Shown: piece by piece, positions 1 to 61,387 of the stretch
Numbering within the stretch: position 1 is the stretch's first letter
Layout of the letters: every line of letters begins with the position of its first letter
From: Steroidobacteraceae bacterium
GTDB taxonomy: Bacteria; Pseudomonadota; Gammaproteobacteria; Steroidobacterales; Steroidobacteraceae
NCBI GenBank assembly: GCA_044375575.1
Contig: JBILMJ010000010.1
Coordinates: 2,282 to 66,281, forward strand
Length of the DNA stretch: 64,000 nucleotides
Reading direction: 5' to 3'
The notes under the pieces: generated by a model
The model's input: only the letters and a program-made list of their open reading frames with translations
Told to the model about the DNA's origin: nothing
The model's database searches: none
Program-made: the position numbers and the translations under genes

Positions 1-411
1 AGCATAGTCGAGGCTGAAGTATTGGAAAACACTGTTGGAGATGACGCAATCGTACGGTGTTTCGGGGTTTATCTTTGTGGCTTCTATGCATTGAAAATCA
101 CTATTCGGAAAGACTCTCTGCGCCGTTTTTATTAAACCGATTCCGTAGTCATTTCCCCCTACTTTTAGGGAAGCGTGCTCGCACAGAGCGTATAGAAATG
201 CTCCACTGCCGCAGCCAACCTCGTAGACCGAGTCGCCATCCTTCAGGCCAATTATGTCTGTCACTCTGCCCGCATACTCGCGCCAGTCATCAAGTTCAAT
301 CTTGCCTGCGCCGCTATCAAATCCGTCAAGAGTAATTAGATCTTGGAGACGAATTGCGTTAGATGTATCCGCGTTACGCCGATTCCATATTTCGTACCAC
401 CTGTCCTGCAT
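1..411 (-). CDS. Class I SAM-dependent methyltransferase, N-terminal 137 codons only (gene continues past the left window edge)
   Basis: Absent from the ORF track because it is open at the edge. Reverse-strand translation from the ATG at 411-409 reads MQDRWYEIWNRRNADTSNAIRLQDLITLDGFDSGAGK...DGDSVYEVGCGSGAFLYALCEH...DCVISNSVFQYFSLDYA. VYEVGCGSGAF is SAM-binding motif I of class I methyltransferases. There is a 3-nt spacer to the ORF upstream (415-816). Confidence 0.7.
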   Translation of the reverse strand, partial: MQDRWYEIWNRRNADTSNAIRLQDLITLDGFDSGAGKIELDDWREYAGRVTDIIGLKDGDSVYEVGCGSGAFLYALCEHASLKVGGNDYGIGLIKTAQRVFPNSDFQCIEATKINPETPYDCVISNSVFQYFSLDYA

Positions 412-414
412 TAT

Positions 415-816
415 CTATTCCTTATTCAGGTATAAGTTTGATATTGCTTTTAGTACCCGACCTCGCAACTGTGAGCTGCTTACTCCGTTTGTTCGCGGTA
501 GCACCAAAAGGCGGTCCTTTGATACGAGGTTGCTGTTGTCACTACCATGGACAAGCAAGTCAATTCGATACTGATCTAAAAAGGAATCGTCGATCAGCCA
601 TGGCGAAGGGACGACCTCGTCGACGAATTTGATAGCTTCGAGAACTTCACGTCGGGAGGCAAAATCGAGTTCCGGCTCGAAGCCTTTTTGGGATAGGATC
701 TCTTCGTCAGTTGTTAGGGCAACAATGACATTCCCGTGTTCCTTCGCCGCTCGCAGCAAGCGAACATGCCCGTGATGAATGAGGGTCGCGGACATATCCA
801 CCATTACCCGCCTCAC
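415..816 (-). CDS. Stand-alone cytidylyltransferase-like protein (HxGH nucleotidyltransferase, TagD/ECT type)
   Basis: 133-aa ORF. The N-terminus VMVDMSATLIHHGHVRLLRAAKEHGNVIVALTTDEEI carries the HxGH motif and the following helix of the cytidylyltransferase superfamily. The first codon is GTG, overlapping the stop of the upstream aminotransferase (GTGA, 813-816). ATG alternatives lie at 804 and 795. Confidence 0.7.
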   Translation of the reverse strand: MRRVMVDMSATLIHHGHVRLLRAAKEHGNVIVALTTDEEILSQKGFEPELDFASRREVLEAIKFVDEVVPSPWLIDDSFLDQYRIDLLVHGSDNSNLVSKDRLLVLPRTNGVSSSQLRGRVLKAISNLYLNKE

Positions 817-1802
817 TCCACTATCTCCAGAACTGAGAGAATTTTACCTCTAGCGGCGCGACCTAAGTGTGCCTCACCCAGGTGGCAAACAACGCTTCCG
901 CCAAGGTCCGTTCGAGGCGCATAAAGGATTGCACGCTGGTCCTTTGTGAGTATCTTGCAACGTACATGTGTGCACAGGAGCGGCTGATGCTCTCGCGAAC
1001 GTGTCAGATGCCGCTCCATGCGTTTAACAAAGATGCGCTTGTTTTCGGCTACAGACTCACGGAATGCGTCGTGGTCGGCGAGCACGTTGTCCAACGAAGC
1101 TATTGCGTGATATGGCCCCGTCATCAACTTTCCAATGTGACTCTCCATACTCAAATAAAATGAGTCAACTTCGACAGTGGGCGCTTCGTGATACGCAATA
1201 AATGCCGCGCCGGTCAGCCCGAAAAGACCCTTACAGGAGCTGTACGCGATAGCATCCCCGAACTCGTGCCGGGACTCGAGACCGATCGATGCAGTGGCAT
1301 CGAGCATAAGGCGCGCTGACAGCCGATCTGAGGTGGCACGCAAAGTGTCAATCGGAAGTTTCAGTCCGCAACTAGTTTCTGTGTAGCATGCGAAGACCCA
1401 ATCAAACTGGCCCCCAACGTTCTGGAGTTGATCCCATTCCGCAACGCACACCTCCCTGATGTGATTAAGCCGGCGTCGTGCTGAGTTGGCTAACCACAAC
1501 AGACGCTGAGAGTAAAAGCCCGACTTCACTACCAACACACGGCCGTACAGGAAGTTCAGGGCCATGACCTCAAGAGCTAGACTTGCAGAACCCTGCATCC
1601 GTACAACATTTGCATGGCCAGACATTTTTCGTAATGATTCCGTCACACGTTCCTCGACTGCAGCGTAGTCGCTGTCCCCTCTGCCAAAGCAGGGGCGAAG
1701 GCCACTGAGGTTTTCCGTTAGGAGTGAAGCAGGACCAGCCGTAAATAGAAGTTTACCCGCATTCCGACCTTCGACGAAGTCAGCCATCGATTCCGTTTTC
1801 AT
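813..1802 (-). CDS. aepZ: Class V aminotransferase, 2-aminoethylphosphonate:pyruvate transaminase-like
   Basis: 329 aa. It has LLFTAGPASL near the N-terminus and YSSCKGL (PLP-lysine context), typical of PhnW/AGXT-type class V aminotransferases. It lies immediately downstream of PEP mutase and phosphonopyruvate decarboxylase, which is the established AEP gene order. Confidence 0.7.
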   Translation of the reverse strand: MKTESMADFVEGRNAGKLLFTAGPASLLTENLSGLRPCFGRGDSDYAAVEERVTESLRKMSGHANVVRMQGSASLALEVMALNFLYGRVLVVKSGFYSQRLLWLANSARRRLNHIREVCVAEWDQLQNVGGQFDWVFACYTETSCGLKLPIDTLRATSDRLSARLMLDATASIGLESRHEFGDAIAYSSCKGLFGLTGAAFIAYHEAPTVEVDSFYLSMESHIGKLMTGPYHAIASLDNVLADHDAFRESVAENKRIFVKRMERHLTRSREHQPLLCTHVRCKILTKDQRAILYAPRTDLGGSVVCHLGEAHLGRAARGKILSVLEIVE

Positions 1803-2946
1803 ACGCGTTGCCGCCTCTCAAAAATTTCATGAAATCGGTCTTGTTCTGGACGGGGTGACGGTCGGGACGTCCTAGGTCTTTACGTGCACCCTGCTTACAA
1901 CGAACCTCTAGTAGGGCGCTACCACCTAAGTTGAGCATGCGAGCAAGTTTTTCACGCAAGTCGTCTCGGCCGATCGCAAAATCTGTATAACGGTAGCCGA
2001 AGGCGTCAGCAATGCGATCAAAACGAAGTACGTTCCCTTTTGTAGGTTGCCCACCGACGGAGTCGTGCGCCTCATTATTAAGAACAATGTGAAGGAGGTT
2101 CGGACAGTCAGCACTTACAGCTAAGGCGCCAGCGTGCATGAGCACGGCACCATCACCGTCGATACAAACAACCGTGCGGTGGGGACACGCCAGCGCTATT
2201 CCCGCCGCAATTTGACCAGCATGCCCCATGCCACCGACCGTAAGGAAATCACGCTGATGTCCTGCCCCGACTTGTTTTCTAAGTTCAAAAACCTCCCGCG
2301 ACGCCATACCAGTTGTCGACACGACGGCCGCATCGGCTGGGAGAAGATCAAGTACCTGCTGAATTGCCTCTTCTCTGCTGAGCTCAAGCCCCTTCTGAAG
2401 TGATTTTTCAAGACTGAAACGCGTGAAAGTATTTTTCCTTACAACGAGCGCGACCGGCCCAGAGCGTGCGAGCGCATCGGTAACAGCATGCTGAAGAATG
2501 GTTTCAATTTCACTCGTGTCGGCGTCAAGTATTTGATACGGAATATCGAGTAGATCAAGCTGAGAAAGCGTTACCTGTCCTTGCTTGACGTGTTGCGGTT
2601 CATCTTGAGCCTCGGCCTCGCCCTCCATTAACTCACCGCGCCAACCAATCATCAACACCAACGGAATTGCATACACTTGCGTATCCGCGAGCGACGTCAC
2701 AGGATTAAGGGCATTTCCGACGCCCGAGTTCTGTAAATATACGAGCGCAGGACGAGCGGTCGCAAGGTAATGCCCGATTGCCAAGCCCACGGCGGAACCT
2801 TCATTTGTTGCGACTATATGTCTTTCTGACCCAAACTTGGCGGTAATGCATGCGCAGACGTCCTTGAGCAACGAATCCGGCACTCCAGTTATAAACCGGA
2901 TTCCAGCTTTTTCTAAGCCATAGATGAAATTCTCGGTATGAATCAT
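1780..2946 (-). CDS. aepY: Phosphonopyruvate decarboxylase (ThDP-dependent)
   Basis: 388 aa. The N-terminal Pyr domain reads GVPDSLLKDV...ATNEGSAVGLAIGHYLA. The C-terminal ThDP-Mg motif reads IDGDGAVLMHAGAL...IVLNNEAHDSVGGQPT (GDG...NN). There is an ATGA overlap with the PEP mutase stop (2943-2946). Confidence 0.88.
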   Translation of the reverse strand: MIHTENFIYGLEKAGIRFITGVPDSLLKDVCACITAKFGSERHIVATNEGSAVGLAIGHYLATARPALVYLQNSGVGNALNPVTSLADTQVYAIPLVLMIGWRGELMEGEAEAQDEPQHVKQGQVTLSQLDLLDIPYQILDADTSEIETILQHAVTDALARSGPVALVVRKNTFTRFSLEKSLQKGLELSREEAIQQVLDLLPADAAVVSTTGMASREVFELRKQVGAGHQRDFLTVGGMGHAGQIAAGIALACPHRTVVCIDGDGAVLMHAGALAVSADCPNLLHIVLNNEAHDSVGGQPTKGNVLRFDRIADAFGYRYTDFAIGRDDLREKLARMLNLGGSALLEVRCKQGARKDLGRPDRHPVQNKTDFMKFLRGGNAYENGIDG

Positions 2947-4241
2947 TTTGTGCCGGGGATAAGTTCAAGAATCTCGTTGATACTGATCAATCGATCGTCA
3001 ACTTCAGCCGTCCGTCCATTACGCAGAATCTCGTCTGCCACCCACTTCATTGCTGGATAGGCGGCCCTCATGAGGTGATTTGCGTAAATGACTATATTGA
3101 AGCCCCGAGCAGAAAGCTCTTCTTCAGTAGCAGCATTGTAACTGGTCGGCACACTTACGAGTGGAATATGAGGAAAATCGCCGCGGAAGATTCGCGCAAA
3201 CTCGTAGACTTCGCTCGGATCCTTACGCCTGCTATGGATCATAATCCCGTCAACCCCGGCTTCGACATAGGCTTGCGCTCGTAACACCGCGTCTCTCATA
3301 CCTTTATCGAGAATAAGACTTTCAATTCGCGCGATCACCATAAAATCGGAACTGATACGACTTTCTCGACCGGCTCGAATTTTCTCACAAAATCGACCAA
3401 TTTCCTCTTGAGTCTGCGAAACCTCAGTGCCGAAAAGTGAGTTTTTTTTCAGGCCGGTTTTATCTTCAATAATTACCGAAGAAATACCTAAACGCTCAAT
3501 TGTACGAACATTAATCTCGAAGTGCTCTGGCTTGCCGCCCGTATCAAGGTCCATGATGAGCGGCTTTGTAGTTACTTCAAATATATTATTAATGTTACTG
3601 AGACGGCTCGATATATCAAGCGCCTCGATGTCAGGCTTTCCCATCTCAGTGGAGTCGGTTAGCGAACTAGACCAAAACCCATCAAACTGCTTTAACTTCC
3701 CATCCACTTCACGGTTTGCATTTTCTACAATCAACGCTGAAATAGGACTGTGCGCCTCTAGGAATCGGGTGATCGGTTTCGACCGTAACAACCTTTTTAA
3801 CGTCCCTTTTCTTATCTCTGGCGTTGTGCCGAACGAAAGAATTTTCTCCACTAAGCTACTTGACGAAACGTCTTTGGTGTACGGAATCTCTATCAGTTTT
3901 CCGCCGTACTCAGCCAGAGCCTCAAGCGCCTTATCTCGATACGGAGCTAACGGGCCGTCAAGCCAGTCGTCCCCGTGAATCATAAAATCTGGGCGGTATT
4001 TCCTGATGTTAGGAGCGTAGTCCCATTCGTTCTGAATAACGACTCTCGAAACACCGACGATGTTTTCGAGTATTCTTTTTCGATATTCAAATTTCAAATA
4101 GGGAAGCCGCTTGTAATCAGCAAGAGCTTCGTCGGTCAACAGGCCGATAATTAACTCCCCGTATTCTCTTGCACGCTCGATAATATTAATGTGCCCATGA
4201 TGAAAAATATCTACCGTCATACCTAAATATATTTTAGTCAT
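2943..4241 (-). CDS. aepX: Bifunctional cytidylyltransferase-like domain fused to phosphoenolpyruvate phosphomutase
   Basis: 432 aa. Residues 1 to about 135 form a cytidylyltransferase fold (GMTVDIFHHGHINIIERAREYGELIIGLLTDEA, HxGH). The rest is isocitrate-lyase/PEP-mutase fold with the diagnostic PEP mutase signature IIEDKTGLKKNSLFG (EDKxxxxxNS) and DLDTGG. Confidence 0.9.
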   Translation of the reverse strand: MTKIYLGMTVDIFHHGHINIIERAREYGELIIGLLTDEALADYKRLPYLKFEYRKRILENIVGVSRVVIQNEWDYAPNIRKYRPDFMIHGDDWLDGPLAPYRDKALEALAEYGGKLIEIPYTKDVSSSSLVEKILSFGTTPEIRKGTLKRLLRSKPITRFLEAHSPISALIVENANREVDGKLKQFDGFWSSSLTDSTEMGKPDIEALDISSRLSNINNIFEVTTKPLIMDLDTGGKPEHFEINVRTIERLGISSVIIEDKTGLKKNSLFGTEVSQTQEEIGRFCEKIRAGRESRISSDFMVIARIESLILDKGMRDAVLRAQAYVEAGVDGIMIHSRRKDPSEVYEFARIFRGDFPHIPLVSVPTSYNAATEEELSARGFNIVIYANHLMRAAYPAMKWVADEILRNGRTAEVDDRLISINEILELIPGTK

Positions 4242-5506
4242 CCGCGTTTCTCGTGTGGATCAGAATCTTTTATAGTAACGCTATCTTTAAATTTTAAATA
4301 TTTTTACTAGCGATTTTAAAATATTTGCCTCGTCCCTCAATTAGCGGAAAAGCAGTTTTTTAAATCGATGGAACCTTCAATCCGCTTTAGCATGGTAAGC
4401 TACTTTCCGAGTAAAATACCGGCTACGGCTGCATCTGGCTCGTTTATTTTTTTGAAAGAAAATTTTCGCTTGGCTGGCGCCACTCATCTTTTTAAGCGCC
4501 TGATGAGGCCGGCTTCGTAATTATTATTTTTAACTAATTCTCGTCCAGCCATACATCTGACAGTTAGCCGTTGATATAATATCGATAAATTTAGCGAAAA
4601 TTTTTTCCGGCTAAATGAAGGCAAGCTGATGCATACGAAAGACAGCCTTATTCTATAAATTCCGAGGGTCAATTCATTTCTTTTTCGAAACTCTATTTTA
4701 GTTTCAACTTGTTCTAGCTGGCAACTCAGGCGACGTCATAGCTTCGGACTCTAATAATCGTCGATAAGTTGGATGTGTGGCATTTGACTGCATCGCCGAC
4801 CGCGAGAGCGCGAATATCGTTGCATAAACCTACTTCTCCAATTCGGATATTACCTGGCGAGCGTGATCAAGCCGTTTTGCGGGAAAATCCTTTTTGCTTC
4901 CGTCAAAAATTTTTCGTCTCCAGTCTTGCGCCGCCTCGGTTATTTTTAATCGTCGGCGCGGTCACGTTTAAACCCCCGTTTTTCACCGGGCCTACGAACT
5001 AACCCGACCTCGAGGCGCATAGGCACAAAACTCCATACCAACTCTCAAAACAATATATTTTCAAAAGCCCGCGCTCTAATAGCGATTGCCTAAACTTTCA
5101 CGACCGAGCTCGCGCATCGCTTCGAGTCAAATTGACAATACAACCAACTCCGCCCGGCCTTATTTTATAGCCGCATAACTCACTTAAGCGTAACACGTGC
5201 ACGGAGCGCCGCAACCATTAATTAGCCCTTCGGCGAGCCTGGTTCCCCCGGAGGCCCCAGCAATCCTGAGCGGTACTGTTCGACTTTCGTTCCTTGATAA
5301 GATCTCTTTCAGTCTAAAAACCCCCTAGACTTTATACTTGACGAGGTAACGGTGCACTCGGAAAACCGTATTTATAAAACTCGAATCTGACACCGCAGAT
5401 TTAAACTTAACTTGGGGCCCTATCGTGACGCCCTACCCAAATGACAATCTCTGTTTTTAAAACAGCCTTCTGAATAGCTTGGGATCTTCTAAGTTGAGCT
5501 GAGTGA
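4242..5506. other. 1.26-kb AT-rich region without a credible ORF (promoter region and/or decayed gene remnants)
   Basis: The longest ORFs are 62 and 77 aa with no recognisable motif. This is the only large gap in an otherwise gap-free minus-strand gene array. Reverse-strand reading gives short protein-like stretches broken by stops (for example ...DGSKKDFPAKRLDHARQVISELEK* ending near 4839-4841). Confidence 0.5.
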
Positions 5507-7231
5507 TTAGCTTAATCCGGGCGGCTCGCGTAACGGCGTCAAGTTAGACGGCTCGACTAACGCGACGCCCGACTGAAACTGCTTTTCTAAATTATTGGCC
5601 TCTACTATGTCATCGGGTGTTAGTTCCAGCCCCAGAATATTTGCAATAACGCCAACGATTTCGGGCGCCTGGATCGTCGGCTTACTGAAGTGTCGCGTTC
5701 GAATAATGTGTTTAGCATTTCGGTTTAGCACCCAACTTAATGGTACAGGACGGTTGGCCTGCCACTCCAAATCAAACGCATGAATAGTTTCACCAAGTAC
5801 AATATTTTGCGGTCCACAGTCGAGTGCAGAGCCTTCAATAGTTACGGAGTCCAGTCGACGTCCGCGCAGGTTCGTCAAGGTCAACTGGTTACCGCTCAGG
5901 CGGCAATTGATCTTGAAGCTGTGTAGAAGGAAGGCGGTCCAAGTCTCCAGCAAGTACACTAAGCGATCACCGTCACTTTTCTTTAACGCCTTTGAAATTT
6001 CAACACCCATTAATCGGCCGGGGAAATACTTAGAACTTCCGTTGTCAATTATCTGGCGGATTTGTATCAAGTCCCCCGATTCGGTGGTCACAAAGATTGG
6101 ACGATCAGTAACCGCCCCGTCTGGCAACAGGGGACTCTTAAGGACCTTTAGTTGACCATGACCGTCGGTCACGAAACATGTGTGTGTACACAAATCACGC
6201 TTCCGATCTACAGAAAAATAGTGCGCGAGAACATTCGGGTCAAAACCATCTTGTTGTTCATCGTATCGGCAGGCGATCAAAAACGAGTTGGCCAAATCGA
6301 TCATTAACCCATTTTTTCGAAGCGATCCCAAAACCAGAGATTCATCAAACATGCGATCATTCTTTCCACGGTAATCCAGGCTTCGTGAGTAATGCAGCAT
6401 CTCTTCAGCACGAAAATTTCGATTCGCACTTATATTTTCGCTATATATTACCTTCGGCAATTTGTAGTCAGGAAAAGCCGCGAAAAACTTGCAATTAACA
6501 AAACCAGCGTCGGCTAACATGTCAGCTAATTCTGCACGACCCCAGGTCGTGATGTCGTTATCAGAGTAGAGGTCCTGCGGACCATAGAACCGTTTTCCGT
6601 TATGATCTTCGCCAGCGCCATTCAGATATTTGATCCCAAGCTTATTTTCGATTGCGACGAGCAAATTGCCGTTCGGCTTCATGTAACGTCGGGCAAGATC
6701 AAGATACTCCCGCTGACGATTACCGGAGCTGGCATACTTCTGCGAGTACTCCAAGACGCCGATCATTAAAACCCAGTCGTACTTTTCAGCAATGTTCAGC
6801 GATAGGAAATTATCGACGACTACGCGTACATTTTTAAATCCCTCGCAGCGCTTCGCCGCAATAGCTGCGCGCGACAGCTCGGCCTCCACTGACGTTACTT
6901 CGGCACCAATTTCTGCTAAGTAGCGCGTGATTGATCCACAGCCGCTGCCAAGTTCCAAGACACGGTCGCCACGCTTGATGTCGAACGGTCGCAGCACCAA
7001 GTGTCGCTTGCGCGAGAAGTGGTACTCACTTGGCCAATCAACCATGTGCCTGACCAGGTCAGACGAGAATGTGGAGCGGTCGTCCACGGCTTGAATTAAC
7101 CGTATAAGCTTATCTTCGCCCCCATCACGATAGCCAATACTGCGGGTACCCGGCCTGGTGTAGACACCGAGCCGCTCGTCCAAAACATAACAGGGATCGT
7201 CGGGGCTAGTTGATGAGTCGGAATTTGTCAT
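5507..7231 (-). CDS. Two-domain protein: N-terminal class I SAM methyltransferase plus C-terminal kinase-like domain (WbdD-like architecture)
   Basis: 574 aa. Motif I is RVLELGSGCGSITRYLAEIGAEVTSVE. The C-terminal part contains LDCGPQNIVL...IHAFDLEW, which resembles the DxxxxN catalytic loop and the (I/F)DxE metal-binding motif of APH/choline-kinase/WbdD-type kinases. The kinase call is inference only. Confidence 0.6.
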   Translation of the reverse strand: MTNSDSSTSPDDPCYVLDERLGVYTRPGTRSIGYRDGGEDKLIRLIQAVDDRSTFSSDLVRHMVDWPSEYHFSRKRHLVLRPFDIKRGDRVLELGSGCGSITRYLAEIGAEVTSVEAELSRAAIAAKRCEGFKNVRVVVDNFLSLNIAEKYDWVLMIGVLEYSQKYASSGNRQREYLDLARRYMKPNGNLLVAIENKLGIKYLNGAGEDHNGKRFYGPQDLYSDNDITTWGRAELADMLADAGFVNCKFFAAFPDYKLPKVIYSENISANRNFRAEEMLHYSRSLDYRGKNDRMFDESLVLGSLRKNGLMIDLANSFLIACRYDEQQDGFDPNVLAHYFSVDRKRDLCTHTCFVTDGHGQLKVLKSPLLPDGAVTDRPIFVTTESGDLIQIRQIIDNGSSKYFPGRLMGVEISKALKKSDGDRLVYLLETWTAFLLHSFKINCRLSGNQLTLTNLRGRRLDSVTIEGSALDCGPQNIVLGETIHAFDLEWQANRPVPLSWVLNRNAKHIIRTRHFSKPTIQAPEIVGVIANILGLELTPDDIVEANNLEKQFQSGVALVEPSNLTPLREPPGLS

Positions 7232-7234
7232 TAT

Positions 7235-7924
7235 CTATTCCTTTATTAGATAAGCTGGCCGCGCCGCAAATGGGAATTTCTTGATCTTTACGTCTCTATT
7301 CGAAAAAAATTTATCTATGGCATATGTGTCACCGTGATAGCTTTTTCCAGAAGTTCCCTCTCCTGAATAATTGTCCAACAAAATTACTCCACCACGAGAA
7401 ACACGATCGTAGAGGTGTTCCAGCACAGCCAGTGTTGGCTCGACGAAATCGATGTCCACATTCAGCAAACAAATTTTTAGGCCTTGATTCTGCATTGCAT
7501 AGTCAGGAACCGTGATGGTGGCATCACCAGCCACGATTTCGAAGTTTGTTATGCCCTTATGTTTCAGTGTAGCGGTCAATTGATCGGCTGAAATTGACGA
7601 GCTACCCGCTGTTTCTATCCAGTGGTTCCTCTGGGCTTTATCTTGCTCAAAACTTGTATCGGGAAAATCATCGCTAAAAACATCGAAGGCGATTAATTTC
7701 GCGGAGAAATTTCCGCCAAGAATCTGGCGCATCAATGCAAAACGGACAAAGCTCGTGCCTTTGAAAACACCGCACTCGACGATTGCTCCCGGCACATTAC
7801 TGGCTAGTTTCATTGCCTCCCAATGCACCAAGAATTTTGATAGTCGTTCTTCATTCATCATCAGATGAAAATTAGTTTCGGCGTCATACATCGCTTGCGT
7901 CGAAAAGTCTGGTAACTGAATCAT
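7235..7924 (-). CDS. TylF/MycF-family (macrocin-type) SAM-dependent O-methyltransferase
   Basis: 229 aa. GAIVECGVFKGTSFVRFA and LLNVDIDFVEPTLAVLEHLYDRVSRGGVILLDNY match the TylF-like methyltransferase pattern. There is a 3-nt spacer to the next gene. Confidence 0.7.
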   Translation of the reverse strand: MIQLPDFSTQAMYDAETNFHLMMNEERLSKFLVHWEAMKLASNVPGAIVECGVFKGTSFVRFALMRQILGGNFSAKLIAFDVFSDDFPDTSFEQDKAQRNHWIETAGSSSISADQLTATLKHKGITNFEIVAGDATITVPDYAMQNQGLKICLLNVDIDFVEPTLAVLEHLYDRVSRGGVILLDNYSGEGTSGKSYHGDTYAIDKFFSNRDVKIKKFPFAARPAYLIKE

Positions 7925-7944
7925 GCGTTTTCCCTTTTTTAATT

Positions 7945-8913
7945 TTAGTCATTTATTGCGAAAGCCGAGTCTTGCCCGGAGAGAGTAGCCAGTCGCATTA
8001 ACTCTGGATACTTCTTCAATCCATTCACGATAATCTTAGGGATATGCGTTGGCCAAACATCAACGATAAGCACAATTCGACGGCCGCGAGAAAGATGTTC
8101 AACTTCGTGGACGATGGAGTCATTGAATCCGAAGGCTTTGCCCTCGGTCCAGGACTTCCACCGTCTGCCTATCCTTATTCTTGAAATACCGTCGGGAGGT
8201 ACTTTGAGCGCTAAGTGATATCGGTGCCTAAGCGAGGTCGAACCCCTATGTGGTGCGATCGTAGTATTCGGCTCGAGGATTGATACAAAAGCAAACCCTA
8301 AGGTTAGGTTCGGACGAAGGCTGTTGATCACCTCAGCGGTGATCGGGCAAGCGCGCCGCATAGCTACGTTCTCCGCGCCTGCCCTATCATAGAACGAGCG
8401 ATATCTCCATAAACCCCCTGGGTTAGCGAGGCTATCGCTGTCTGGGAATTTAACGGACGGGTCGATGGCACCCAACACCTCAGCAGAAATGCTTGGCGCG
8501 CACTGCTCTAGCAGTCGGGTCACGGCGTCATTTTCGGTGATAGTCAAAGCATTACCAGGATAACTCCAGATTACCTCGCCCGCGTAGCCGTCGAGTCGGA
8601 GTCGTCTTATGCCATGGTTCATTGCAACTGCGTCGTACTCTCCCGCCTTAGCAGACCGTTGTAATATGCGTAACCCCTCATCCGTCGCTAGTTGCGCTAA
8701 CGACCACCCCTGAAAGACTACCGTACCCAGCGCCGACTCTCTTGCGACGACAGACCTCAGCATATGATGTTGCTGCGTGATGCGAGCGATATCTTCCGGT
8801 AACGAAGCGGAATCATCCCGCCCGGCCCCCTCCGCGAACGAGTCGAGAGAGCCCTGCGGTATCGACGGTACTGAGGCCAAATTATTACTCACCTGTCTCT
8901 CCATGGCGACCAT
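7945..8913 (-). CDS. Aspartyl/asparaginyl beta-hydroxylase-family Fe(II)/2-oxoglutarate dioxygenase (LpxO-like fold)
   Basis: 322 aa. The C-terminal half reads FAFVSILEPNTTIAPHRGSTSLRHRYHLALKVP...WTEGKAFGFNDSIVHEVEHLSRGRRIVLIVDVW. This follows the family pattern (xPHxG...HLxLxxP...W.EG....FDDS..HE..N.....R..L..D.W). Confidence 0.7.
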   Translation of the reverse strand: MVAMERQVSNNLASVPSIPQGSLDSFAEGAGRDDSASLPEDIARITQQHHMLRSVVARESALGTVVFQGWSLAQLATDEGLRILQRSAKAGEYDAVAMNHGIRRLRLDGYAGEVIWSYPGNALTITENDAVTRLLEQCAPSISAEVLGAIDPSVKFPDSDSLANPGGLWRYRSFYDRAGAENVAMRRACPITAEVINSLRPNLTLGFAFVSILEPNTTIAPHRGSTSLRHRYHLALKVPPDGISRIRIGRRWKSWTEGKAFGFNDSIVHEVEHLSRGRRIVLIVDVWPTHIPKIIVNGLKKYPELMRLATLSGQDSAFAIND

Positions 8914-8950
8914 CTAGTCTTCAGATTTTTATTCCGGTAGAAATATTTTT

Positions 8951-9958
8951 CTAAATCGGTATAGCCTTTTTTTCTAATTTAACTGTCGACTGGCTAATGA
9001 GCGAAAAAAGCGCGTCGGAAAATGCTTCCGCAGCAACACCGGCGTTAGGTGGCATGTAGTCAGTAAACTTTTTTAGAGCTTCTTGGGTCGCCAGATATTG
9101 TTCTGGATAAGTGAGAGACTCAATAATGATCGGGAGATCGGCCATGTTTACTTTTTTTACAAACGGGAACGGAACCGAGGGCGCGCGCGGCGGATTAGTA
9201 TCCGGGACTTTCCAGTCCATCACCGCGATTGGCACGCAACCAACCATAAATCCTTCGGCCATTGTCGACGATTCATCAGAGACGATGCAGTCTGTCAACG
9301 CAATCGCATCAAAGATCTTAGTTTTCGGATCGAGAAAATGAACATTGCTCCATTTTCCACGATGCATGTTAGCCATTTCCTTAACGCGTTGCAGGTGACC
9401 CATACCCTCCCAATATTGCTGTTTAATAAAGATATCTACCGGCAGATGGGTCAGCGCGCGAAGGAATTTATCCTGCTGGTTATCAAATTCCCAGGATGGC
9501 GCGTACAAAATCCGAAGCCGTGACCCCTTAAATATCGAACCAGAAACCGGCGTATGTCGCATTTTCTGAAAGGAGCTATCGGATTTTGGCCATCCCAAGA
9601 CGACGACGCCGTCGCGCGGCTTGCGTTCAACACACCCATACTCGTCGTACATTGATTTCCATGCTTGGTTAGGCAGCATTCCAAGCCGATAATTTCCCCA
9701 CGGCTCTTTATCCCAAAATTTTGGCCAAACATTGTGCGCCTGACCCAGGTCATGCAGCATAACTACAGGATACTCAGCGAGATCAGGGCGATTCTTCTTG
9801 TGATGTCCCAGAAATAGACCGACATGAGACGGAAGAATCATTCTGCGATCAATCGTCATGCTGAGGCCGCGCCGCTGCAATGCGTTTACGATGGGCTCTA
9901 GTGACTGCTCCTCAGTCCAGTCAGTTGGATAAGCGCATAGTATGTGTCTTTTTACCAT
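8951..9958 (-). CDS. TagF-like CDP-alcohol phosphotransferase (CDP-glycerol glycerophosphotransferase family-like)
   Basis: 335 aa. RILYAPSWEF and LTDCIVSDESSTMAEGFMVGCVPIAV resemble the two conserved TagB/TagF-family blocks (ILYAPTxR and DxLITDYSSxxFDF...P). The donor and acceptor are unknown. Confidence 0.5.
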   Translation of the reverse strand: MVKRHILCAYPTDWTEEQSLEPIVNALQRRGLSMTIDRRMILPSHVGLFLGHHKKNRPDLAEYPVVMLHDLGQAHNVWPKFWDKEPWGNYRLGMLPNQAWKSMYDEYGCVERKPRDGVVVLGWPKSDSSFQKMRHTPVSGSIFKGSRLRILYAPSWEFDNQQDKFLRALTHLPVDIFIKQQYWEGMGHLQRVKEMANMHRGKWSNVHFLDPKTKIFDAIALTDCIVSDESSTMAEGFMVGCVPIAVMDWKVPDTNPPRAPSVPFPFVKKVNMADLPIIIESLTYPEQYLATQEALKKFTDYMPPNAGVAAEAFSDALFSLISQSTVKLEKKAIPI

Positions 9959-10010
9959 CGCTCTTTGCTCCTCAAAAATTGTCAGCTTATTGGTTGGCGC
10001 GAAGGAGGGG

Positions 10011-11054
10011 TTATTTGCCGCTTTGAGTCAAATATTCTTTTGAACTGTTCGTGGCGAGTTGCGCTAACAACGTCACCCAGTGTCGAGTTATCGCTGGTCT
10101 ACTAAACTCGTCAATTATCGAGTTAAATTTTTTTAGTTCGTTGAGATGGCTTAAGTTTCGGTGCACTACGACAGACGGCCAGATAGGGGACACCCTGACA
10201 AAATACTTCTCGAATCGGAGGTATGACCGCATAGGCGAGGCAACCGGCACCAGCCCTAGTTGAATAGCGGTAACCAACCGATTTTCGCTAACGCCTGCCT
10301 TTCGCGGATCATTTACATCAGACGGGATGACGACGATGTCTGAGCCCGCGGCCGCGTCCTGAAGATTCGCCAAAGACCATGGGAAAATATCGATGCGAGG
10401 TAATGAAATCGTGGCCCGATGTAACTTGACCCACTCTTGAAGTAATCGGGAGCCAACTGAATCAGTAACGACTTTTAACTGACGAAGGGGCGTGACATTT
10501 AGGGACTGTTCCAGAAAATGGATTAAATACTGAATATTAGTACAAGACCCAAACCATAAAGCACGCCACGGCGGGAGACCTGGCAAGCGCGGCTTTTGTG
10601 GATCTATCTCGCACGGATCGGGAATTTCAACTACATCGCCAACCCATAGTTCCCTAATAAGCTGACTCATAGCCACGGACGGAGTTACAAGTTTATCGGC
10701 GTAAGGCAGCACGTTCTTATAGAAGGCGGTCATCACACCGTCGAATCCGCAGTAATGATCGGTGTAGTCAATAATCACGCGACATCCGGAGGCGTGTAAG
10801 TTCTTGATATACCTAAGCCAAAGGTGTCCACGGGAATCAACTAGGTTCCCACCGATCTTGCCAACATAAATAACGTCTGGTCGAGCATCGAAGCGCTCAC
10901 CTAAAGTCAATCGCCAGCCCAATTCTTGCGCAGCGCGCGCAACCAACGCGCTACGCATTCGAACGCTCGCGAGAGAGTTTTTCTCAAGGGAGGTAATTGA
11001 TTCGTGAGAATTCGGCACTAGGACGTGCAAGTGTTTTTTTTGCGGAATGTTCAT
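10011..11054 (-). CDS. Hypothetical protein, GT-B glycosyltransferase-like
   Basis: The track ORF starts at a TTG (11057), and the adjacent ATG at 11054 is more likely. The C-terminal block GVSENRLVTAIQLGLVPVASP is reminiscent of the GT-B (GT1/GT4) E-x7-E / PVV region. There is no other motif. It is still AT-rich and is the last gene of the island. Confidence 0.35.
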   Translation of the reverse strand: MNIPQKKHLHVLVPNSHESITSLEKNSLASVRMRSALVARAAQELGWRLTLGERFDARPDVIYVGKIGGNLVDSRGHLWLRYIKNLHASGCRVIIDYTDHYCGFDGVMTAFYKNVLPYADKLVTPSVAMSQLIRELWVGDVVEIPDPCEIDPQKPRLPGLPPWRALWFGSCTNIQYLIHFLEQSLNVTPLRQLKVVTDSVGSRLLQEWVKLHRATISLPRIDIFPWSLANLQDAAAGSDIVVIPSDVNDPRKAGVSENRLVTAIQLGLVPVASPMRSYLRFEKYFVRVSPIWPSVVVHRNLSHLNELKKFNSIIDEFSRPAITRHWVTLLAQLATNSSKEYLTQSGK

Positions 11055-11075
11055 CAAGACTTAAGCCGTGATCAC

Positions 11076-11819
11076 TCAACCCGCTGCGTGATGCATGGCG
11101 GCGCGAGCTGATTTAACGACGATTGACTTGTCGATCGGCGCGCTCAACACATCGGCGCACTTTCGCCATGCCTCTCCGTACTCCACTTTTTGATACTCCT
11201 CAAACCACGGCCCTCCTCGCGTGAAATGCACGGCGGTGGGGTCTTCGCAATCCGCAGCGGTGTGCCAGCCCTCGAGATAATTCCAGGTGACGGGCAGTGA
11301 GCCGATCGCATCGTCGGTGAGCCAGTTGAAGCGATGCAGGTAAAGACCGGACTCGCTGTTTACCACATCGGGGGTCAAGGTCTGCACCTGCTCGTGACCG
11401 CAGTTGATGAACATAAAGCTCGACCAATTCTTTCGCGGATACTGTGTCTGCTTCTGGCCGTCCATCTTCACGGTTTCTTTGGGGACGTAGTCGTGTTTCA
11501 CGCAGTAAAGCGCTTTCGAGGGGTCTCGGTAATCGAGAAGCCCGGCGATGTCTTTGCGGAACAGGAAGTCGCAATCGACGAACACCGCCCAGCCGGTGTA
11601 GCCGGCGAGGTAAGGCGTCAAAAAGCGGGTGAACGAAAACTCCGTCGACGACAGCGCATCGGGTCCGCGCCAGTACAGGCCTCGCGCCCGAAGATCATCC
11701 TGCTTGATGGGAATGATCTGTAGCGGGATCGAGCTGTGCTGTTCGAGCGAGCGCTTGCACACCTGATAGGCAATGTCCTCGCGGCTGTCCCAGCCGACAT
11801 AAACACGAAGCGGTTTCAT
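11076..11819 (-). CDS. GT-A fold glycosyltransferase (GT8-like, DxD motif)
   Basis: The track ORF (11076-12350) has an Arg-rich 177-aa extension lying inside the Maf gene in another frame. The credible start is the ATG at 11819 (MKPLRVYVGWDSREDIAYQV...), which forms an ATGA overlap with the Maf stop (11816-11819). WAVFVDCDFLF is a DxD motif. This is the first high-GC gene. Confidence 0.65.
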   Translation of the reverse strand: MKPLRVYVGWDSREDIAYQVCKRSLEQHSSIPLQIIPIKQDDLRARGLYWRGPDALSSTEFSFTRFLTPYLAGYTGWAVFVDCDFLFRKDIAGLLDYRDPSKALYCVKHDYVPKETVKMDGQKQTQYPRKNWSSFMFINCGHEQVQTLTPDVVNSESGLYLHRFNWLTDDAIGSLPVTWNYLEGWHTAADCEDPTAVHFTRGGPWFEEYQKVEYGEAWRKCADVLSAPIDKSIVVKSARAAMHHAAG

Positions 11820-30361: not shown

Positions 30362-30551
30362 TGAGAAAAATCCGATCAACAAGCTGCCGGTCTTCGCGTT
30401 TCGCGCAAATCCGATACGAAAGACACCTTAGATAAGGGACGGGGCTCTTTTACTGCAGGCTTTTTTTAACGCTCATTTAGCAAGGGCCTGAATGGCCCGG
30501 CGATTGCATAGTCGATCCACGAAAAGGTCGAGGCCAGCCACGGAAAATCGT

Positions 30552-30567
30552 TGGCACGACTATTGCT
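30552..30567 (+). promoter_or_regulatory. Sigma-54 (-24/-12) promoter for the flagellin gene
   Basis: TGGCACGACTATTGCT at 30552-30567 matches TGGCAC-N5-TTGC(A/T) exactly. The -12 element lies about 54 nt upstream of the fliC ATG (30620). Confidence 0.75.
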
Positions 30568-30619
30568 TGCACGTAAAGGCCAGCCTGTAGCTGGCGAGAT
30601 TTCGACGGAGAACCACGTA

Positions 30620-47092: not shown

Positions 47093-47102
47093 GGATGTCG
47101 GA

Positions 47103-52553: not shown

Positions 52554-52557
52554 GGAT

Positions 52558-61362: not shown

Positions 61363-61387
61363 CAGTTCATTACTCTTCGGAGACTCG

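What the first reader, a model, noticed from the sequence alone, without database searches (positions are those of the whole stretch)
1..11057. AT-rich phosphonate (AEP) biosynthesis and tailoring island welded onto the maf/flagellar operon: predicted phosphonate-decorated flagellar glycan
Seen: every gene from 1 to 11057 is on the minus strand and is AT-richer than everything to the right (sampled lines about 45% GC at 10.02 kb versus about 70% at 12.0 kb). The composition step falls near the spacer between the stop at 11076 and the ATG at 11054. The island encodes PEP mutase (EDKxxxxxNS), phosphonopyruvate decarboxylase and a class V aminotransferase, which is the established three-step route to 2-aminoethylphosphonate. 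It also has two HxGH cytidylyltransferase modules (CMP-AEP is the established activated donor), a TagF-like phosphotransferase, methyltransferases and a 2OG dioxygenase. It abuts, co-directionally and with no terminator that I can see, a GT-A transferase, two Maf flagellin-glycosylation paralogues and fliD. Inference: flagellin, or another axial protein, carries a glycan capped with an AEP-type phosphonate that may be methylated or hydroxylated. I know of phosphonoglycans on capsules, LPS and lipids. I also know of phosphate-containing flagellin glycans (C. difficile type A, P. aeruginosa b-type). I do not know of a C-P phosphonate on flagellin.
Basis: partly seen in the sequence, partly recalled or inferred. 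Interest (0 to 1): 0.8.

Follow-up and report, generated by a model that had tools for sequence, protein, structure and literature searches.

The report
Phosphonate cassette inside a flagellin glycosylation island
A horizontally acquired gene block that makes and activates the C-P compound 2-aminoethylphosphonate lies between flagellar glycosylation genes and a flagellin gene, and similar blocks sit beside flagellin genes in other bacteria (cultured Methylophilus included), so these flagella probably carry a phosphonate-tagged glycan.

Summary
Window 1-11057 is an all-minus-strand, low-GC block (48.6% GC, GC3 0.51) beside native flagellar genes (60% GC, GC3 0.74). The step falls exactly between the GT8-like gene (11076-11819) and the next gene.

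The block encodes:
- cytidylyltransferase::PEP mutase, phosphonopyruvate decarboxylase and an AEP-type aminotransferase;
- a second cytidylyltransferase;
- a TagF-like phosphotransferase;
- three or four methyltransferases, an AspH-type dioxygenase and a GT-B glycosyltransferase.

Two points are new. The island runs past the window start and ends at a second, minimal flagellin gene of island-like composition. And phosphonate clusters with the same TagF-like enzyme sit at flagellin loci in three other architectures: 11 Methylophilus and 3 Methylotenera genomes, a syntenic island beside a giant flagellin, and a contig with a non-orthologous AEP module and a TagF-methyltransferase-GT2 fusion upstream of fliC.

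The logic matches the C. difficile type A flagellin pathway (cytidylyltransferase, TagF-like transferase, N-methyltransferase).

Verdict: real, and a new variant of known systems. Flagellin as the target is inferred from context (confidence about 0.65). It can be tested in cultured methylotrophs.

The parts
1..411 (-). 3' part of a 230-aa class-I SAM methyltransferase (MT230), cut by the window start. It is the last gene of the conserved five-gene AEP core module and a candidate N-methyltransferase of AEP.
   Evidence: The full gene is seen on the source contig (L001:13831-14523; PF08242/PF13649). Homologues at 42-56% identity follow the cytidylyltransferase in Methylophilaceae, L094 and L142.
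415..816 (-). Stand-alone PF01467 cytidylyltransferase (CTase2). The gene caller starts it at 804. It has an HHGH motif.
   Evidence: PF01467 at 6.5e-13. HHGH at residue 14. It is conserved directly after the aminotransferase in the closest modules from several phyla, and elsewhere within the module in a few (Terasakiella, Arcobacter, SAR11-type loci), including some that lack a TagF homologue.
813..1802 (-). Divergent class-V aminotransferase, predicted to convert phosphonoacetaldehyde to 2-aminoethylphosphonate.
   Evidence: Weak PhnW/AepZ hits lie far below the curated cut-offs and there is no Pfam hit. The best PDB matches are AEP-pyruvate transaminases: 7e7g at 1.5e-10 and 1m32 at 1e-5. 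An SSCK lysine motif lies at residue 188. The gene keeps its position after Ppd in the module.
1780..2946 (-). Phosphonopyruvate decarboxylase (Ppd).
   Evidence: TIGR03297 at 446 bits (cut-off 312.5), plus the TPP_enzyme_N and TPP_enzyme_C domains.
2943..4241 (-). Fusion of an N-terminal PF01467 cytidylyltransferase with PEP mutase (Ppm).
   Evidence: TIGR02320 at 405 bits (cut-off 319.6), PF13714 at 3.6e-53 and PF01467 at 3.1e-14. EDKTGLKKNS lies at residue 259 and HHGH at residue 14. This fusion type makes up 23.6% of known Ppm proteins (PMC6697681).
4242..5506 (.). A 1265-bp gene-free stretch of 44% GC at the joint between the tailoring half and the AEP core. It is probably a recombination scar and a promoter region.
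   Evidence: It has no ORF of 80 aa or more on the coding strand. It has no Rfam or tRNA hit, no repeats and no similarity to any fetched locus. Five promoter-like hits lie on the minus strand. The same two genes are 93 nt apart in L142 and L144.
5507..7231 (-). A 574-aa protein (MT574) with a class-I SAM methyltransferase domain (residues 73-246) and an uncharacterised C-terminal half.
   Evidence: Pfam methyltransferase families match. The homologous domain is fused to a GT41/TPR/GT2 giant protein in Methylophilus and to a TagF-like/GT2 protein in L094. It is 74-80% identical in L142-L144.
7235..7924 (-). TylF-family (macrocin O-methyltransferase-like) methyltransferase.
   Evidence: PF05711 at 1.7e-15. 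It is 86-87% identical in L142-L144. Homologues at 57-58% identity lie next to Ppm in SAR11-type contigs.
7945..8913 (-). AspH/LpxO-family (PF05118) Fe/2-oxoglutarate dioxygenase. Its substrate is unknown.
   Evidence: PF05118 at 1.2e-30. It belongs to a small clade of about 42 proteins at 39-70% identity. The two full contexts inspected, plus one short fragment (L143), place it between the TagF-like and TylF genes; the two full contexts carry the complete syntenic island.
8951..9958 (-). TagF-like (PF04464-family) phosphotransferase, predicted to transfer the phosphonyl group from CMP-AEP to a glycan hydroxyl.
   Evidence: The single sequence gives no hit. It is 32-34% identical over its full length to proteins of which 9 of 10 match PF04464 (best 7.5e-14). 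The family profile hits TagF-like Cps3D (8qoy, 1.4e-10) and TarL. The GWPKSD and SDESS motifs are present. About 26 of 29 well-flanked loci of this clade carry Ppm/Ppd within a few kb.
10011..10958 (-). GT-B-fold glycosyltransferase of 315 aa (the ORF could extend to 11057). It is the first gene of the low-GC block.
   Evidence: Only 13 homologues exist in 5.8 billion proteins. The AF2 model has pLDDT 87. Foldseek gives GtfC 9hu9 at 7e-9, then Gtf3, SdgB and SenB. Homologues sit in other flagellin glycosylation islands.
11076..11819 (-). GT8-like GT-A glycosyltransferase of native composition. Its start overlaps the maf stop codon by 4 nt (ATGA).
   Evidence: The AF2 model (pLDDT 72) matches WbbM (3.7e-9), GlyE, LgtC, glycogenin and UGGT by Foldseek. 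The DCD and HFTRGGPW motifs are present. The ATGA overlap is confirmed.
11816..13786 (-). Maf paralogue 2 (MptE-like domain).
   Evidence: PF01973 at 5.6e-34.
13800..15743 (-). Maf paralogue 1 (MptE-like domain), 47% identical to paralogue 2.
   Evidence: PF01973 at 2.4e-30. The 47% identity comes.
15747..17318 (-). FliD filament cap. It is preceded by flgL, flgK, flgI, flgH, flgG, flgF, flgE and flgD up to 29353.
   Evidence: Pfam matches.
30551..32248 (+). Large flagellin (up to 565 aa) of native composition, one of two candidate acceptor proteins. The other is a 288-aa minimal flagellin just beyond the window start (L139:6626-7492).
   Evidence: Flagellin_N at 4.3e-38 and Flagellin_C at 5.5e-24. 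The second flagellin is shown.

Best explanation
Window 1-11057 is most of the variable, horizontally acquired part of a flagellin glycosylation island. The rest lies about 2.1 kb beyond the window start.

The island sits between the native genes flgE...fliD-maf-maf-GT8 and a second, minimal flagellin gene. It is a mosaic of two modules joined at a 1.26 kb non-coding stretch.

Proposed mechanism. Steps 1-3 rest on established enzymology of the named families. Steps 4-7 are inferred.
1. The Ppm domain converts PEP to phosphonopyruvate.
2. Ppd decarboxylates it to phosphonoacetaldehyde.
3. The class-V aminotransferase makes 2-aminoethylphosphonate (AEP).
4. A PF01467 cytidylyltransferase (the Ppm-fused one and/or the stand-alone one) makes CMP-AEP.
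5. The TagF-like enzyme (8951-9958) transfers the phosphonyl group from CMP-AEP to a hydroxyl of an O-glycan on flagellin in the cytoplasm and releases CMP. This is the step that CD0244 is proposed to perform with CDP-threonine in C. difficile.
6. The glycan itself is built by the Maf proteins, the GT8-like enzyme and the GT-B enzyme.
7. MT230 probably N-methylates the AEP amine, by analogy with CD0243. The TylF-like and 574-aa methyltransferases and the AspH-like dioxygenase tailor the phosphonate or sugar further.

The predicted result is a filament surface coated with a zwitterionic, phosphatase-resistant phosphonoglycan.
For: Enzyme identities.

Position: native flagellar genes lie on one side. 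On the other side lies a complete 288-aa flagellin of island-like composition (GC3 0.53).

Recurrence at flagellin loci in different designs:
- (i) In 11 Methylophilus genomes, fliC is divergent from the same five-gene AEP module. The module is followed by a TagF-like::TPR protein and a giant GT41/TPR/methyltransferase/GT2 protein. These genomes include M. methylotrophus DSM 46235 and the complete M. medardicus chromosome. Three Methylotenera MAGs have the genes in another order. Further metagenomic copies exist.
- (ii) L142 and L144 carry a syntenic 12-gene island of unremarkable GC. In L142 it lies beside a flagellin of at least 1332 aa and TPR proteins.
- (iii) In L094 a non-orthologous module (Ppm::NTP_transf_3, Ppd, Aminotran_5, NTP_transf_3, MT) is followed by a single 1774-aa protein fusing TagF-like, MT574-like and GT2 domains, directly upstream of fliC-flaG-fliD-fliS.

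Link between the TagF-like clade and phosphonate genes: about 26 of 29 well-flanked loci carry Ppm/Ppd within a few kb. The clade persists when the PF01467 cytidylyltransferases are replaced by PntC/LicC-type ones, which argues against CDP-glycerol as the donor (PMC6697681 shows PntC enzymes prefer AEP).

Cassette swapping: a relative with an 89%-identical GT8 gene and a 56%-identical GT-B gene carries other methyltransferase/GT genes instead of the phosphonate genes. That is typical of a variable glycosylation island.

Precedents: the C. difficile type A pathway uses a cytidylyltransferase, a TagF-like transferase and an N-methyltransferase on FliC-GlcNAc (PMC10714395). AEP was detected by MS on that glycan (PMC8861647).
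Against: - There is no chemical or expression evidence. The acceptor is inferred from gene neighbourhood only.
- One Methylophilus MAG (L017) has the module plus TagF::TPR among housekeeping genes, with no flagellar or GT gene within 10 kb.
- Non-motile SAR11-type genomes also carry the TagF-like clade next to Ppm. The clade is therefore not specific to flagella.
- The same core module occurs without flagellar genes in Vulcanococcus, Verrucomicrobiota, Kiritimatiellae and Balneolaceae.
- No sigma-28-type promoter was found in front of the AEP core, and the 1.26 kb gap suggests separate transcription.
- No nonulosonic-acid biosynthesis genes, the usual partners of Maf, occur in the 75 kb of contig examined.
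- The aminotransferase fails the curated AEP-transaminase cut-offs.
- The organism is uncultivated and unplaced; its FlgI is at most 50% identical to any plasmid-borne homologue.
Confidence: 0.65

Rival explanations
1. The phosphonate cassette decorates another surface polymer (LPS O-antigen, capsule, exopolysaccharide or a lipid). It sits in the flagellar locus only because variable glycosylation islands are permissive landing sites for foreign DNA.
For: The closest core modules occur in non-flagellar contexts and in non-motile taxa. L017 has the module away from flagellar genes. The island is compositionally foreign. The AEP core may have its own promoter. Most known bacterial AEP ends up on polysaccharides or lipids (PMC6697681).
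Against: Chance insertion would have to be repeated in at least three or four different architectures. One of them has a non-orthologous AEP module, and one has a TagF-MT-GT2 fusion immediately upstream of fliC. The island is bracketed by a flagellin gene of its own composition. No Wzx/Wzy, ABC exporter or lipid-carrier genes occur in the island.
Confidence: 0.17
2. The TagF-like enzyme transfers the phosphonate directly onto Ser/Thr of flagellin or another axial protein, with no sugar in between. This would be a protein O-phosphonylation comparable in spirit to phosphocholine or phosphoethanolamine on pilin.
For: In Methylophilaceae the TagF-like enzyme carries a C-terminal TPR domain, a protein-recognition module also found in flagellin glycosyltransferases. 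In L017 the module plus TagF::TPR stands with no glycosyltransferase nearby.
Against: To my knowledge (not checked here), characterised TagF-family enzymes act on glycerol or sugar hydroxyls, and the proposed C. difficile analogue acts on GlcNAc (PMC10714395). In the window the enzyme lacks TPR and is surrounded by three or four glycosyltransferase-type genes. In L094 it is fused to a GT2 domain.
Confidence: 0.1
3. The stand-alone cytidylyltransferase is a TagD-like glycerol-3-phosphate cytidylyltransferase, and the TagF-like enzyme adds glycerol phosphate from CDP-glycerol. The AEP pathway would then be functionally separate.
For: The best NCBIfam hit for both PF01467 domains is glycerol-3-phosphate cytidylyltransferase (65 and 59 bits), although far below the cut-off of 165. 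TagD/TagF is the classical pairing.
Against: The stand-alone cytidylyltransferase is part of the AEP module even where no TagF homologue exists. The TagF-like clade tracks Ppm, not PF01467, and is retained when the cytidylyltransferases are of the PntC/LicC type. No glycerol-3-phosphate supply genes are present.
Confidence: 0.05

Closest known systems
C. difficile 630 type A flagellin glycan pathway (cd0240-cd0244) and the related P. aeruginosa PAO1 b-type island (PA1088-PA1091)
   Same: Both are encoded next to fliC. Both use a glycosyltransferase to put a sugar on flagellin. In both, a cytidylyltransferase activates a small phospho-compound (CDP-threonine is the proposed intermediate), a TagF-like enzyme (CD0244) transfers it to the sugar, and a methyltransferase (CD0243) N-methylates the amine (PMC10714395, PMC8861647). 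AEP itself has been seen on this glycan (PMC8861647).
   Different: Here the donor is made by a full C-P pathway (Ppm, Ppd, aminotransferase) rather than from phosphothreonine, and no CD0241-type phosphatase-like gene is present. C. difficile has no pepM, so its AEP has no known genetic source. The cytidylyltransferases here are PF01467 and not the CD0242 type. A dioxygenase and two further methyltransferases are extra.
Phosphonyl-tailoring (Pnt) AEP clusters for cell-surface phosphonoglycans and phosphonolipids (Ppm-Ppd-AEPT plus PntC or PF01467 nucleotidyltransferase; Rice et al. 2019, PMC6697681; Li and Horsman 2022, PMC8942020)
   Same: They share the same early pathway, the same Ppm-nucleotidyltransferase fusion type and the same expected CMP-AEP intermediate.
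   Different: The location and presumed acceptor (flagellin glycan) are not among the contexts those inventories discuss; neither paper contains any word beginning 'flagell'. The candidate transferase is TagF-like, whereas LicD-like enzymes and glycosyltransferases are the ones mentioned.
Maf-type flagellin glycosylation islands (Campylobacter, Helicobacter, Aeromonas, Geobacillus, Clostridium)
   Same: Two MptE-like Maf genes lie next to fliD and flagellin genes. A variable, compositionally deviant set of sugar-tailoring genes follows them, and cassettes are swapped between relatives.
   Different: No pse/leg/neu nonulosonate genes occur in the 75 kb examined. A phosphonate pathway sits in the island. 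The equivalent islands in Methylophilaceae, L094 and L142 use TPR/GT41-type proteins and no Maf.
Wall teichoic acid and capsule TagD/TagF machinery (CDP-glycerol glycerophosphotransferases; PDB 8qoy Cps3D, 8va1 TarL)
   Same: The TagF-like fold family is shared, together with the (S/T)D-x-SS motif, a CMP-linked donor and pairing with a PF01467 cytidylyltransferase.
   Different: The enzyme is short (335 aa), probably adds a single group and is not a polymerase. It tracks Ppm genes rather than glycerol-phosphate genes. The window protein alone does not reach the Pfam threshold.

Membership tests
PEP mutase (Ppm) | EDKxxxxxNS catalytic motif that separates Ppm from other isocitrate-lyase-superfamily members (PMC6697681). 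| tested here: met
   EDKTGLKKNS at residue 259 of the 432-aa protein.
PEP mutase (Ppm) | Score above the curated equivalog cut-off (TIGR02320). | tested here: met
   404.7 bits against a cut-off of 319.55.
Phosphonopyruvate decarboxylase (Ppd) | Score above the curated equivalog cut-off (TIGR03297), with both TPP-binding domains. | tested here: met
   446.1 bits against 312.5; PF02776 and PF02775 both match.
AEP transaminase (PhnW/AepZ, class-V aminotransferase) | Score above the curated cut-offs (TIGR03301, TIGR02326, NF010006), or a Pfam Aminotran_5 match. | tested here: not met
   55.7 bits against 360.8, and no Pfam hit at E<=0.01. The nearest solved structures are nevertheless AEP transaminases (7e7g at 1.5e-10), an SSCK lysine motif is present, and the position after Ppd is conserved. 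It is filed as 'AEP-transaminase-like', not as an equivalog.
PF01467 cytidylyltransferase (TagD/Fom1-CyTase type) | HxGH nucleotide-binding motif and a Pfam score above the gathering cut-off. | tested here: met
   HHGH is present in both modules. Scores are 49.5 and 53.7 bits against a cut-off of 21.
PF01467 cytidylyltransferase (TagD/Fom1-CyTase type) | Substrate is AEP or a derivative (formation of CMP-AEP). | not testable with these tools
   This is inferred only from conserved placement in the AEP module and from the Fom1 and PntC precedents (PMC6697681).
TagF / Glyphos_transf (PF04464) | Sequence match to the family model. | tested here: inconclusive
   The window protein alone gives no hit. 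Nine of its ten aligned homologues match PF04464 (best 7.5e-14). The family profile hits the TagF-like Cps3D (8qoy, 1.4e-10) and TarL. The SDESS and GWPKSD motifs are invariant.
TagF / Glyphos_transf (PF04464) | Transfer of a phospho(no) group from a CMP-linked donor to a hydroxyl. | not testable with these tools
   The supporting evidence is the Ppm linkage of the clade.
GT8 (GT-A, retaining) glycosyltransferase | GT-A fold with a DxD motif and the C-terminal H-x-x-G-x-x-P-W-type motif. | tested here: met
   Foldseek probability is 1.0 to WbbM, GlyE, LgtC and glycogenin, with TM 0.55-0.65 on a model of pLDDT 72. DCD and HFTRGGPW are present. There is no Pfam GT8 sequence hit.
GT-B glycosyltransferase (Gtf3/GtfC-like) | Two-Rossmann-domain GT-B fold. 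| tested here: met
   The AF2 model has pLDDT 86.9. Foldseek gives GtfC 9hu9 at 7e-9, then Gtf3 and SdgB, with TM about 0.6. No sequence-level hit was found.
Maf (motility accessory factor) | MptE-like domain (PF01973) in a protein of about 650 aa encoded in a flagellar locus. | tested here: met
   Two paralogues match at 5.6e-34 and 2.4e-30, next to fliD.
Maf (motility accessory factor) | Companion nonulosonic-acid (Pse/Leg) biosynthesis genes. | tested here: not met
   None was found in contig positions 1-75 kb. They could lie elsewhere in the genome.
Flagellin glycosylation island | Glycosyltransferase and sugar-tailoring genes inserted among flagellin, fliD and flg genes, with content that varies between relatives. 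| tested here: met
   Flagellar genes lie on both sides. A relative carries a different cassette after the same GT8 and GT-B genes.
Flagellin glycosylation island | Flagellin is actually glycosylated or phosphonylated. | not testable with these tools
   This needs MS or NMR of filaments.
C. difficile type A-like flagellin modification | Cytidylyltransferase, TagF-like transferase, N-methyltransferase and an initiating GT, all adjacent to a flagellin gene. | tested here: met
   All four functions are present, and a flagellin gene is adjacent. The CD0241-type component is absent and replaced by Ppm/Ppd/aminotransferase. Homology to the C. difficile proteins themselves was not tested.

The most novel reading that the evidence does not exclude
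A dedicated clade of TagF-like enzymes is the missing transferase of the phosphonyl-tailoring pathway. In its TPR-bearing forms it recognises flagellin directly. It may even esterify AEP onto Ser/Thr of the protein with no sugar in between, which would make the filament a true phosphono-protein. The cassette would travel between phyla together with a minimal flagellin as a self-contained 'substrate plus modifier' unit.
Probability: 0.12. Interest if true: 0.85.

Novelty: new variant of a known kind. Interest (0 to 1): 0.62.

Why it matters
- **Genetic source for a known modification.** AEP on a flagellin glycan has been seen once, in C. difficile, which has no pepM and hence no known genetic source (PMC8861647). 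These loci would be the first in which a complete C-P pathway is hard-wired into flagellin modification. They suggest how the type A machinery could accept AEP.

- **Candidate for an open step.** The TagF-like clade is almost always next to Ppm. It is therefore a concrete candidate for the step after CMP-AEP formation, which Rice et al. call enigmatic (PMC6697681).

- **Testable now.** The same design is present in cultured, easily grown methylotrophs (M. methylotrophus DSM 46235; M. medardicus, with a complete chromosome). The prediction can be tested with standard flagellar preparations.

- **Possible biological consequences.** A phosphatase-resistant, zwitterionic coat on minimal flagellins could affect phage adsorption, grazing, immune recognition and filament surface charge. 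It would also add a protein-bound pool to environmental phosphonate budgets (compare PMC8931226).

Tried and rejected
- **Direct family and structure searches.** Pfam, NCBIfam and PDB sequence searches with the three unannotated proteins gave nothing useful. They were solved only through family alignments, AF2 models and Foldseek.
- **The 1.26 kb gap.** Rfam (gathering and permissive thresholds), tRNA scan, repeat search, and tblastx/blastn against 82 loci and the window were all negative. It remains unexplained.
- **Sigma-28 promoter scan.** It recovers the expected sites upstream of fliC in Methylophilus, Methylotenera and L094. It finds none in front of the AEP core, in the gap, or upstream of the window's own fliC. 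Only two intragenic hits appear, at roughly the background rate (10 hits in 64 kb on both strands). This is uninformative.
- **Taxonomic placement.** FlgI against plasmid records gives at most 50% identity.
- **Nonulosonate genes.** A search beyond the window end found none.
- **The 242-aa protein beyond the window start.** No Pfam or PDB hit.
- **The 424-aa ORF at 11076-12350.** Rejected as an artefact. The real gene is the 247-aa C-terminal part, which overlaps the maf stop.
- **Chimeric assembly as the cause of the GC step.** Rejected.
- **Literature.** No paper in the held library combines flagellin-glycosylation-island terms with phosphonate-biosynthesis terms, or TagF with phosphonate clusters. 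Yu et al. 2013 (PNAS) could not be read.

Full report
**What is in the sequence**

The first 11 kb of the window differ in composition from the rest. Region 1-11057 is 48.6% GC and positions 12001-64000 are 60.2%.

Third-codon-position GC shows this best. The ten island genes give 0.45-0.57 (mean 0.51, sd 0.04). Thirteen neighbouring flagellar genes give 0.70-0.78 (mean 0.74, sd 0.02). The switch lies between the gene at 11076-11819 (GC3 0.73) and the next gene downstream (GC3 0.51).

All credible genes are on the minus strand.

The window comes from a 95-kb metagenomic contig (ENA ERZ27272050, k141_665791). Identical genes occur on other assemblies, and a relative has the same junction with the same GC drop, so the step is not an assembly chimera.

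**Gene identities, in the direction of transcription**

- The native genes run flgD, flgE (1117 aa), flgF, flgG, flgH, flgI, flgK (1070 aa), flgL, fliD, then two Maf paralogues (PF01973).
- A 247-aa gene follows. Its ATG overlaps the maf stop codon (ATGA).
  - It has no Pfam or PDB sequence hit.
  - It has 4788 highly conserved homologues.
  - It carries DCD and HFTRGGPW motifs.
  - A predicted structure (pLDDT 72) matches GT8 enzymes: WbbM, GlyE, LgtC, glycogenin and UGGT.
- The low-GC block starts next with a 315-aa protein.
  - Only 13 homologues exist among 5.8 billion proteins.
  - Its model (pLDDT 87) is a GT-B glycosyltransferase. It is closest to GtfC/Gtf3 and SdgB, enzymes that build O-glycans on serine-rich proteins.
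  - On its own it matches nothing.
  - It aligns at 32-34% identity over its full length with proteins of which nine of ten match PF04464.
  - The family profile hits the TagF-like capsule polymerase Cps3D (1.4e-10) and TarL.
- Next are:
  - a PF05118 (AspH/LpxO-type) dioxygenase;
  - a TylF-type methyltransferase;
  - a 574-aa methyltransferase.
- A 1265-bp stretch with no gene follows.
- The AEP core comes last. It consists of:
  - cytidylyltransferase::PEP mutase (EDKTGLKKNS; TIGR02320 405 bits);
  - phosphonopyruvate decarboxylase (TIGR03297 446 bits);
  - a divergent class-V aminotransferase whose nearest solved relatives are AEP transaminases;
  - a second HHGH cytidylyltransferase;
  - a 230-aa methyltransferase that the window start cuts.

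First, the island goes on beyond the window. Other assemblies of the same locus show three more features:
- the complete 230-aa methyltransferase;
- a 242-aa gene of unknown function on the other strand;
- a complete 288-aa flagellin that lacks the outer D2/D3 domains.

This flagellin has island-like composition (GC3 0.53). The window's own large flagellin at 30551-32248 has GC3 0.73. The low-GC block therefore sits between flagellar genes on both sides and seems to have brought a flagellin with it.

Second, the island is a mosaic. In a syntenic island found in an NCBI MAG (L142) and an ENA contig (L144), identities to the window split into two groups:

| Part of the island | Identity to L142/L144 | Identity to other loci |
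|---|---|---|
| Tailoring half (TagF-like, dioxygenase, TylF, MT574) | 67-87% | not compared |
| AEP core (Ppm to MT230) | 41-65% | Ppm is 81% identical to a Vulcanococcus MAG and 70-72% to Methylophilaceae |

The 1.26 kb gene-free stretch lies exactly at this joint. In L142 and L144 the two flanking genes are only 93 nt apart.

The stretch has no ORF, RNA family, repeat or detectable homologue. It carries several promoter-like sites. I read it as a recombination scar that probably now supplies a promoter.

**Does the phosphonate go to the flagellum?**

Gene neighbourhood in other genomes is the main evidence. I scanned one genome per GTDB species with the Ppm fusion protein and searched the flanks of the 80 best loci. 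In 11 Methylophilus genomes and 3 Methylotenera MAGs the same five-gene module lies right beside fliC-flaG-fliD-fliS.

In the complete M. medardicus chromosome the layout is as follows:
- fliC (265 aa) is divergent from the module.
- The module is followed by a TagF-like protein with a C-terminal TPR domain.
- Next comes a protein of more than 1732 aa. It combines a GT41 (O-GlcNAc-transferase-like) domain, TPR repeats, a domain homologous to the window's 574-aa methyltransferase, and a GT2-like domain.

A metagenome scan with the TagF-like alignment gave two further results.
- About 26 of 29 well-flanked loci of this clade have Ppm/Ppd within a few kb. These include SAR11-like contigs of 23% GC.
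- Contig L094 has a differently built AEP module: Ppm with a C-terminal PntC/LicC-type nucleotidyltransferase, Ppd, a canonical Aminotran_5, a second PntC-type enzyme and an MT230 homologue. It is followed by one 1774-aa protein that fuses TagF-like, MT574-like and GT2 domains, directly upstream of fliC-flaG-fliD-fliS.

In L142 the syntenic island lies beside a flagellin of at least 1332 aa and several TPR proteins.

So a phosphonate pathway plus this TagF-like enzyme has been joined to flagellin genes in four different architectures. The companion transferases are of three kinds (Maf, GT41/TPR, fused GT2), and the cytidylyltransferases belong to two unrelated families. That is hard to explain by chance insertion.

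The replacement of PF01467 by PntC-type enzymes, with the TagF-like partner kept, also argues that the donor is a CMP-phosphonate and not CDP-glycerol.

**Counter-evidence**

- One Methylophilus MAG (L017) has the module with TagF::TPR between groEL and uvrD, and no flagellar or GT gene within 10 kb.
- The core module occurs without flagellar genes in several non-motile or unrelated taxa.
- SAR11 relatives use the TagF-like clade without flagella.
- No sigma-28-type promoter precedes the AEP core. The scan did find such sites before fliC in the comparison loci, but it also missed the window's own fliC, so it is uninformative.
- Two Maf genes are present, yet no nonulosonate biosynthesis genes occur in 75 kb of the contig.
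- There is no chemistry and no expression data.

**Comparison with known systems**

The nearest functional analogue is the C. difficile type A flagellin modification. In the revised model the steps are (PMC10714395):
- CD0240 puts GlcNAc on FliC.
- CD0242, a cytidylyltransferase, makes CDP-threonine.
- CD0244, which models on TagF, transfers phosphothreonine to the GlcNAc.
- CD0243 N-methylates it.

The island has the same three-part logic, with AEP biosynthesis in place of phosphothreonine supply.

Hensbergen et al. found 2-AEP on the GlcNAc of C. difficile FliC by MS and noted that C. difficile has no pepM (PMC8861647). A 2025 review lists phosphonate moieties among flagellin glycan decorations (PMC12645811). 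A genetic basis has not been described, however.

Full-text searches found no paper that links flagellin glycosylation islands with phosphonate biosynthesis genes, or TagF-like enzymes with phosphonate clusters. The phosphonate gene-cluster inventories do not mention flagella. I could not read Yu et al. 2013.

A close relative of the window organism has an 89%-identical GT8 gene and a 56%-identical GT-B gene. After them it carries other methyltransferase/GT genes instead of the phosphonate genes. This is the cassette swapping expected in a variable glycosylation island.

**Verdict**

The main inference is supported by comparative genomics, but it remains an inference (confidence 0.65). The leading rivals are:
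- another surface polymer as acceptor (0.17);
- direct protein phosphonylation (0.10);
- a CDP-glycerol reading of the TagF/cytidylyltransferase pair (0.05).

I rate it a new variant of known kinds: a flagellin glycosylation island, a phosphonyl-tailoring cluster, and type A-like chemistry.

Its value lies in three things. It offers a genetic source for phosphonate on flagella. It names a candidate for the unknown CMP-AEP transferase. And cultured Methylophilus strains carry the design, so the prediction is directly testable.

Noticed in passing
window 11076-11819; L083-L086: The GT8-like glycosyltransferase family is very large (4788 hits) and very conserved (65-95% identity). Homologues at about 72% identity lie inside phage-like contigs (Prim-Pol, RusA, P22_Y8K6, GP88 genes), next to a TPR protein and Methyltransf_21/24 genes. 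Why a flagellar-locus enzyme is shared with phages at this identity is unknown.
   Followed up: partly
window 4242-5506: A 1265-bp gene-free stretch of 44% GC has no RNA family, repeat or homologue. It is identical in a second sample. Two other assemblies break inside it. The same two flanking genes are 93 nt apart in the syntenic island of L142 and L144.
   Followed up: yes
window 25273-28626 and 18252-21464: The hook protein FlgE (1117 aa) and the hook-filament junction protein FlgK (1070 aa) are unusually large. Each has long inserts between the conserved termini.
   Followed up: no
L139:6626-7492 (beyond window start); L010:8716-9513; L094:11239-12081: The flagellins next to the AEP clusters in the window lineage, Methylophilus and L094 are all minimal (265-290 aa, no D2/D3 domains). 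L142 is the opposite extreme, with a flagellin of at least 1332 aa.
   Followed up: partly
L017:9989-16090: One uncultured Methylophilus genome carries the AEP module plus TagF::TPR between groEL/FKBP and uvrD. No flagellar or glycosyltransferase gene lies within 10 kb. This is an exception to the flagellar linkage.
   Followed up: yes
L139:5086-5814 (beyond window start); L142:17961-18683: A conserved 242-aa protein has no Pfam or PDB match. It belongs to the island (66-68% identical in L142 and L144). It is on the opposite strand in the window lineage and on the same strand in L142.
   Followed up: partly
window 58447-61434: A 995-aa fusion carries a CofC-type guanylyltransferase/NTP_transf_3 domain and radical-SAM CofG/CofH-like domains (F420 biosynthesis). 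An F420-dependent oxidoreductase gene lies next to it.
   Followed up: no
window 42024-52586: A cluster of large multihaem c-type cytochromes (451, 1256 and 575 aa). One carries LVIVD repeats and one an FHA domain.
   Followed up: no
window 10719-10693 and 6836-6810 (minus strand): Two sigma-28-like promoter motifs (TAAN-N15-GCCGATAA type) lie inside coding regions of the island. Their frequency is about background.
   Followed up: partly
window 11076-12350: The mechanical 424-aa ORF is an artefact of high GC. Only its C-terminal 247 codons form the gene. The upstream part overlaps the end of maf in another frame.
   Followed up: yes
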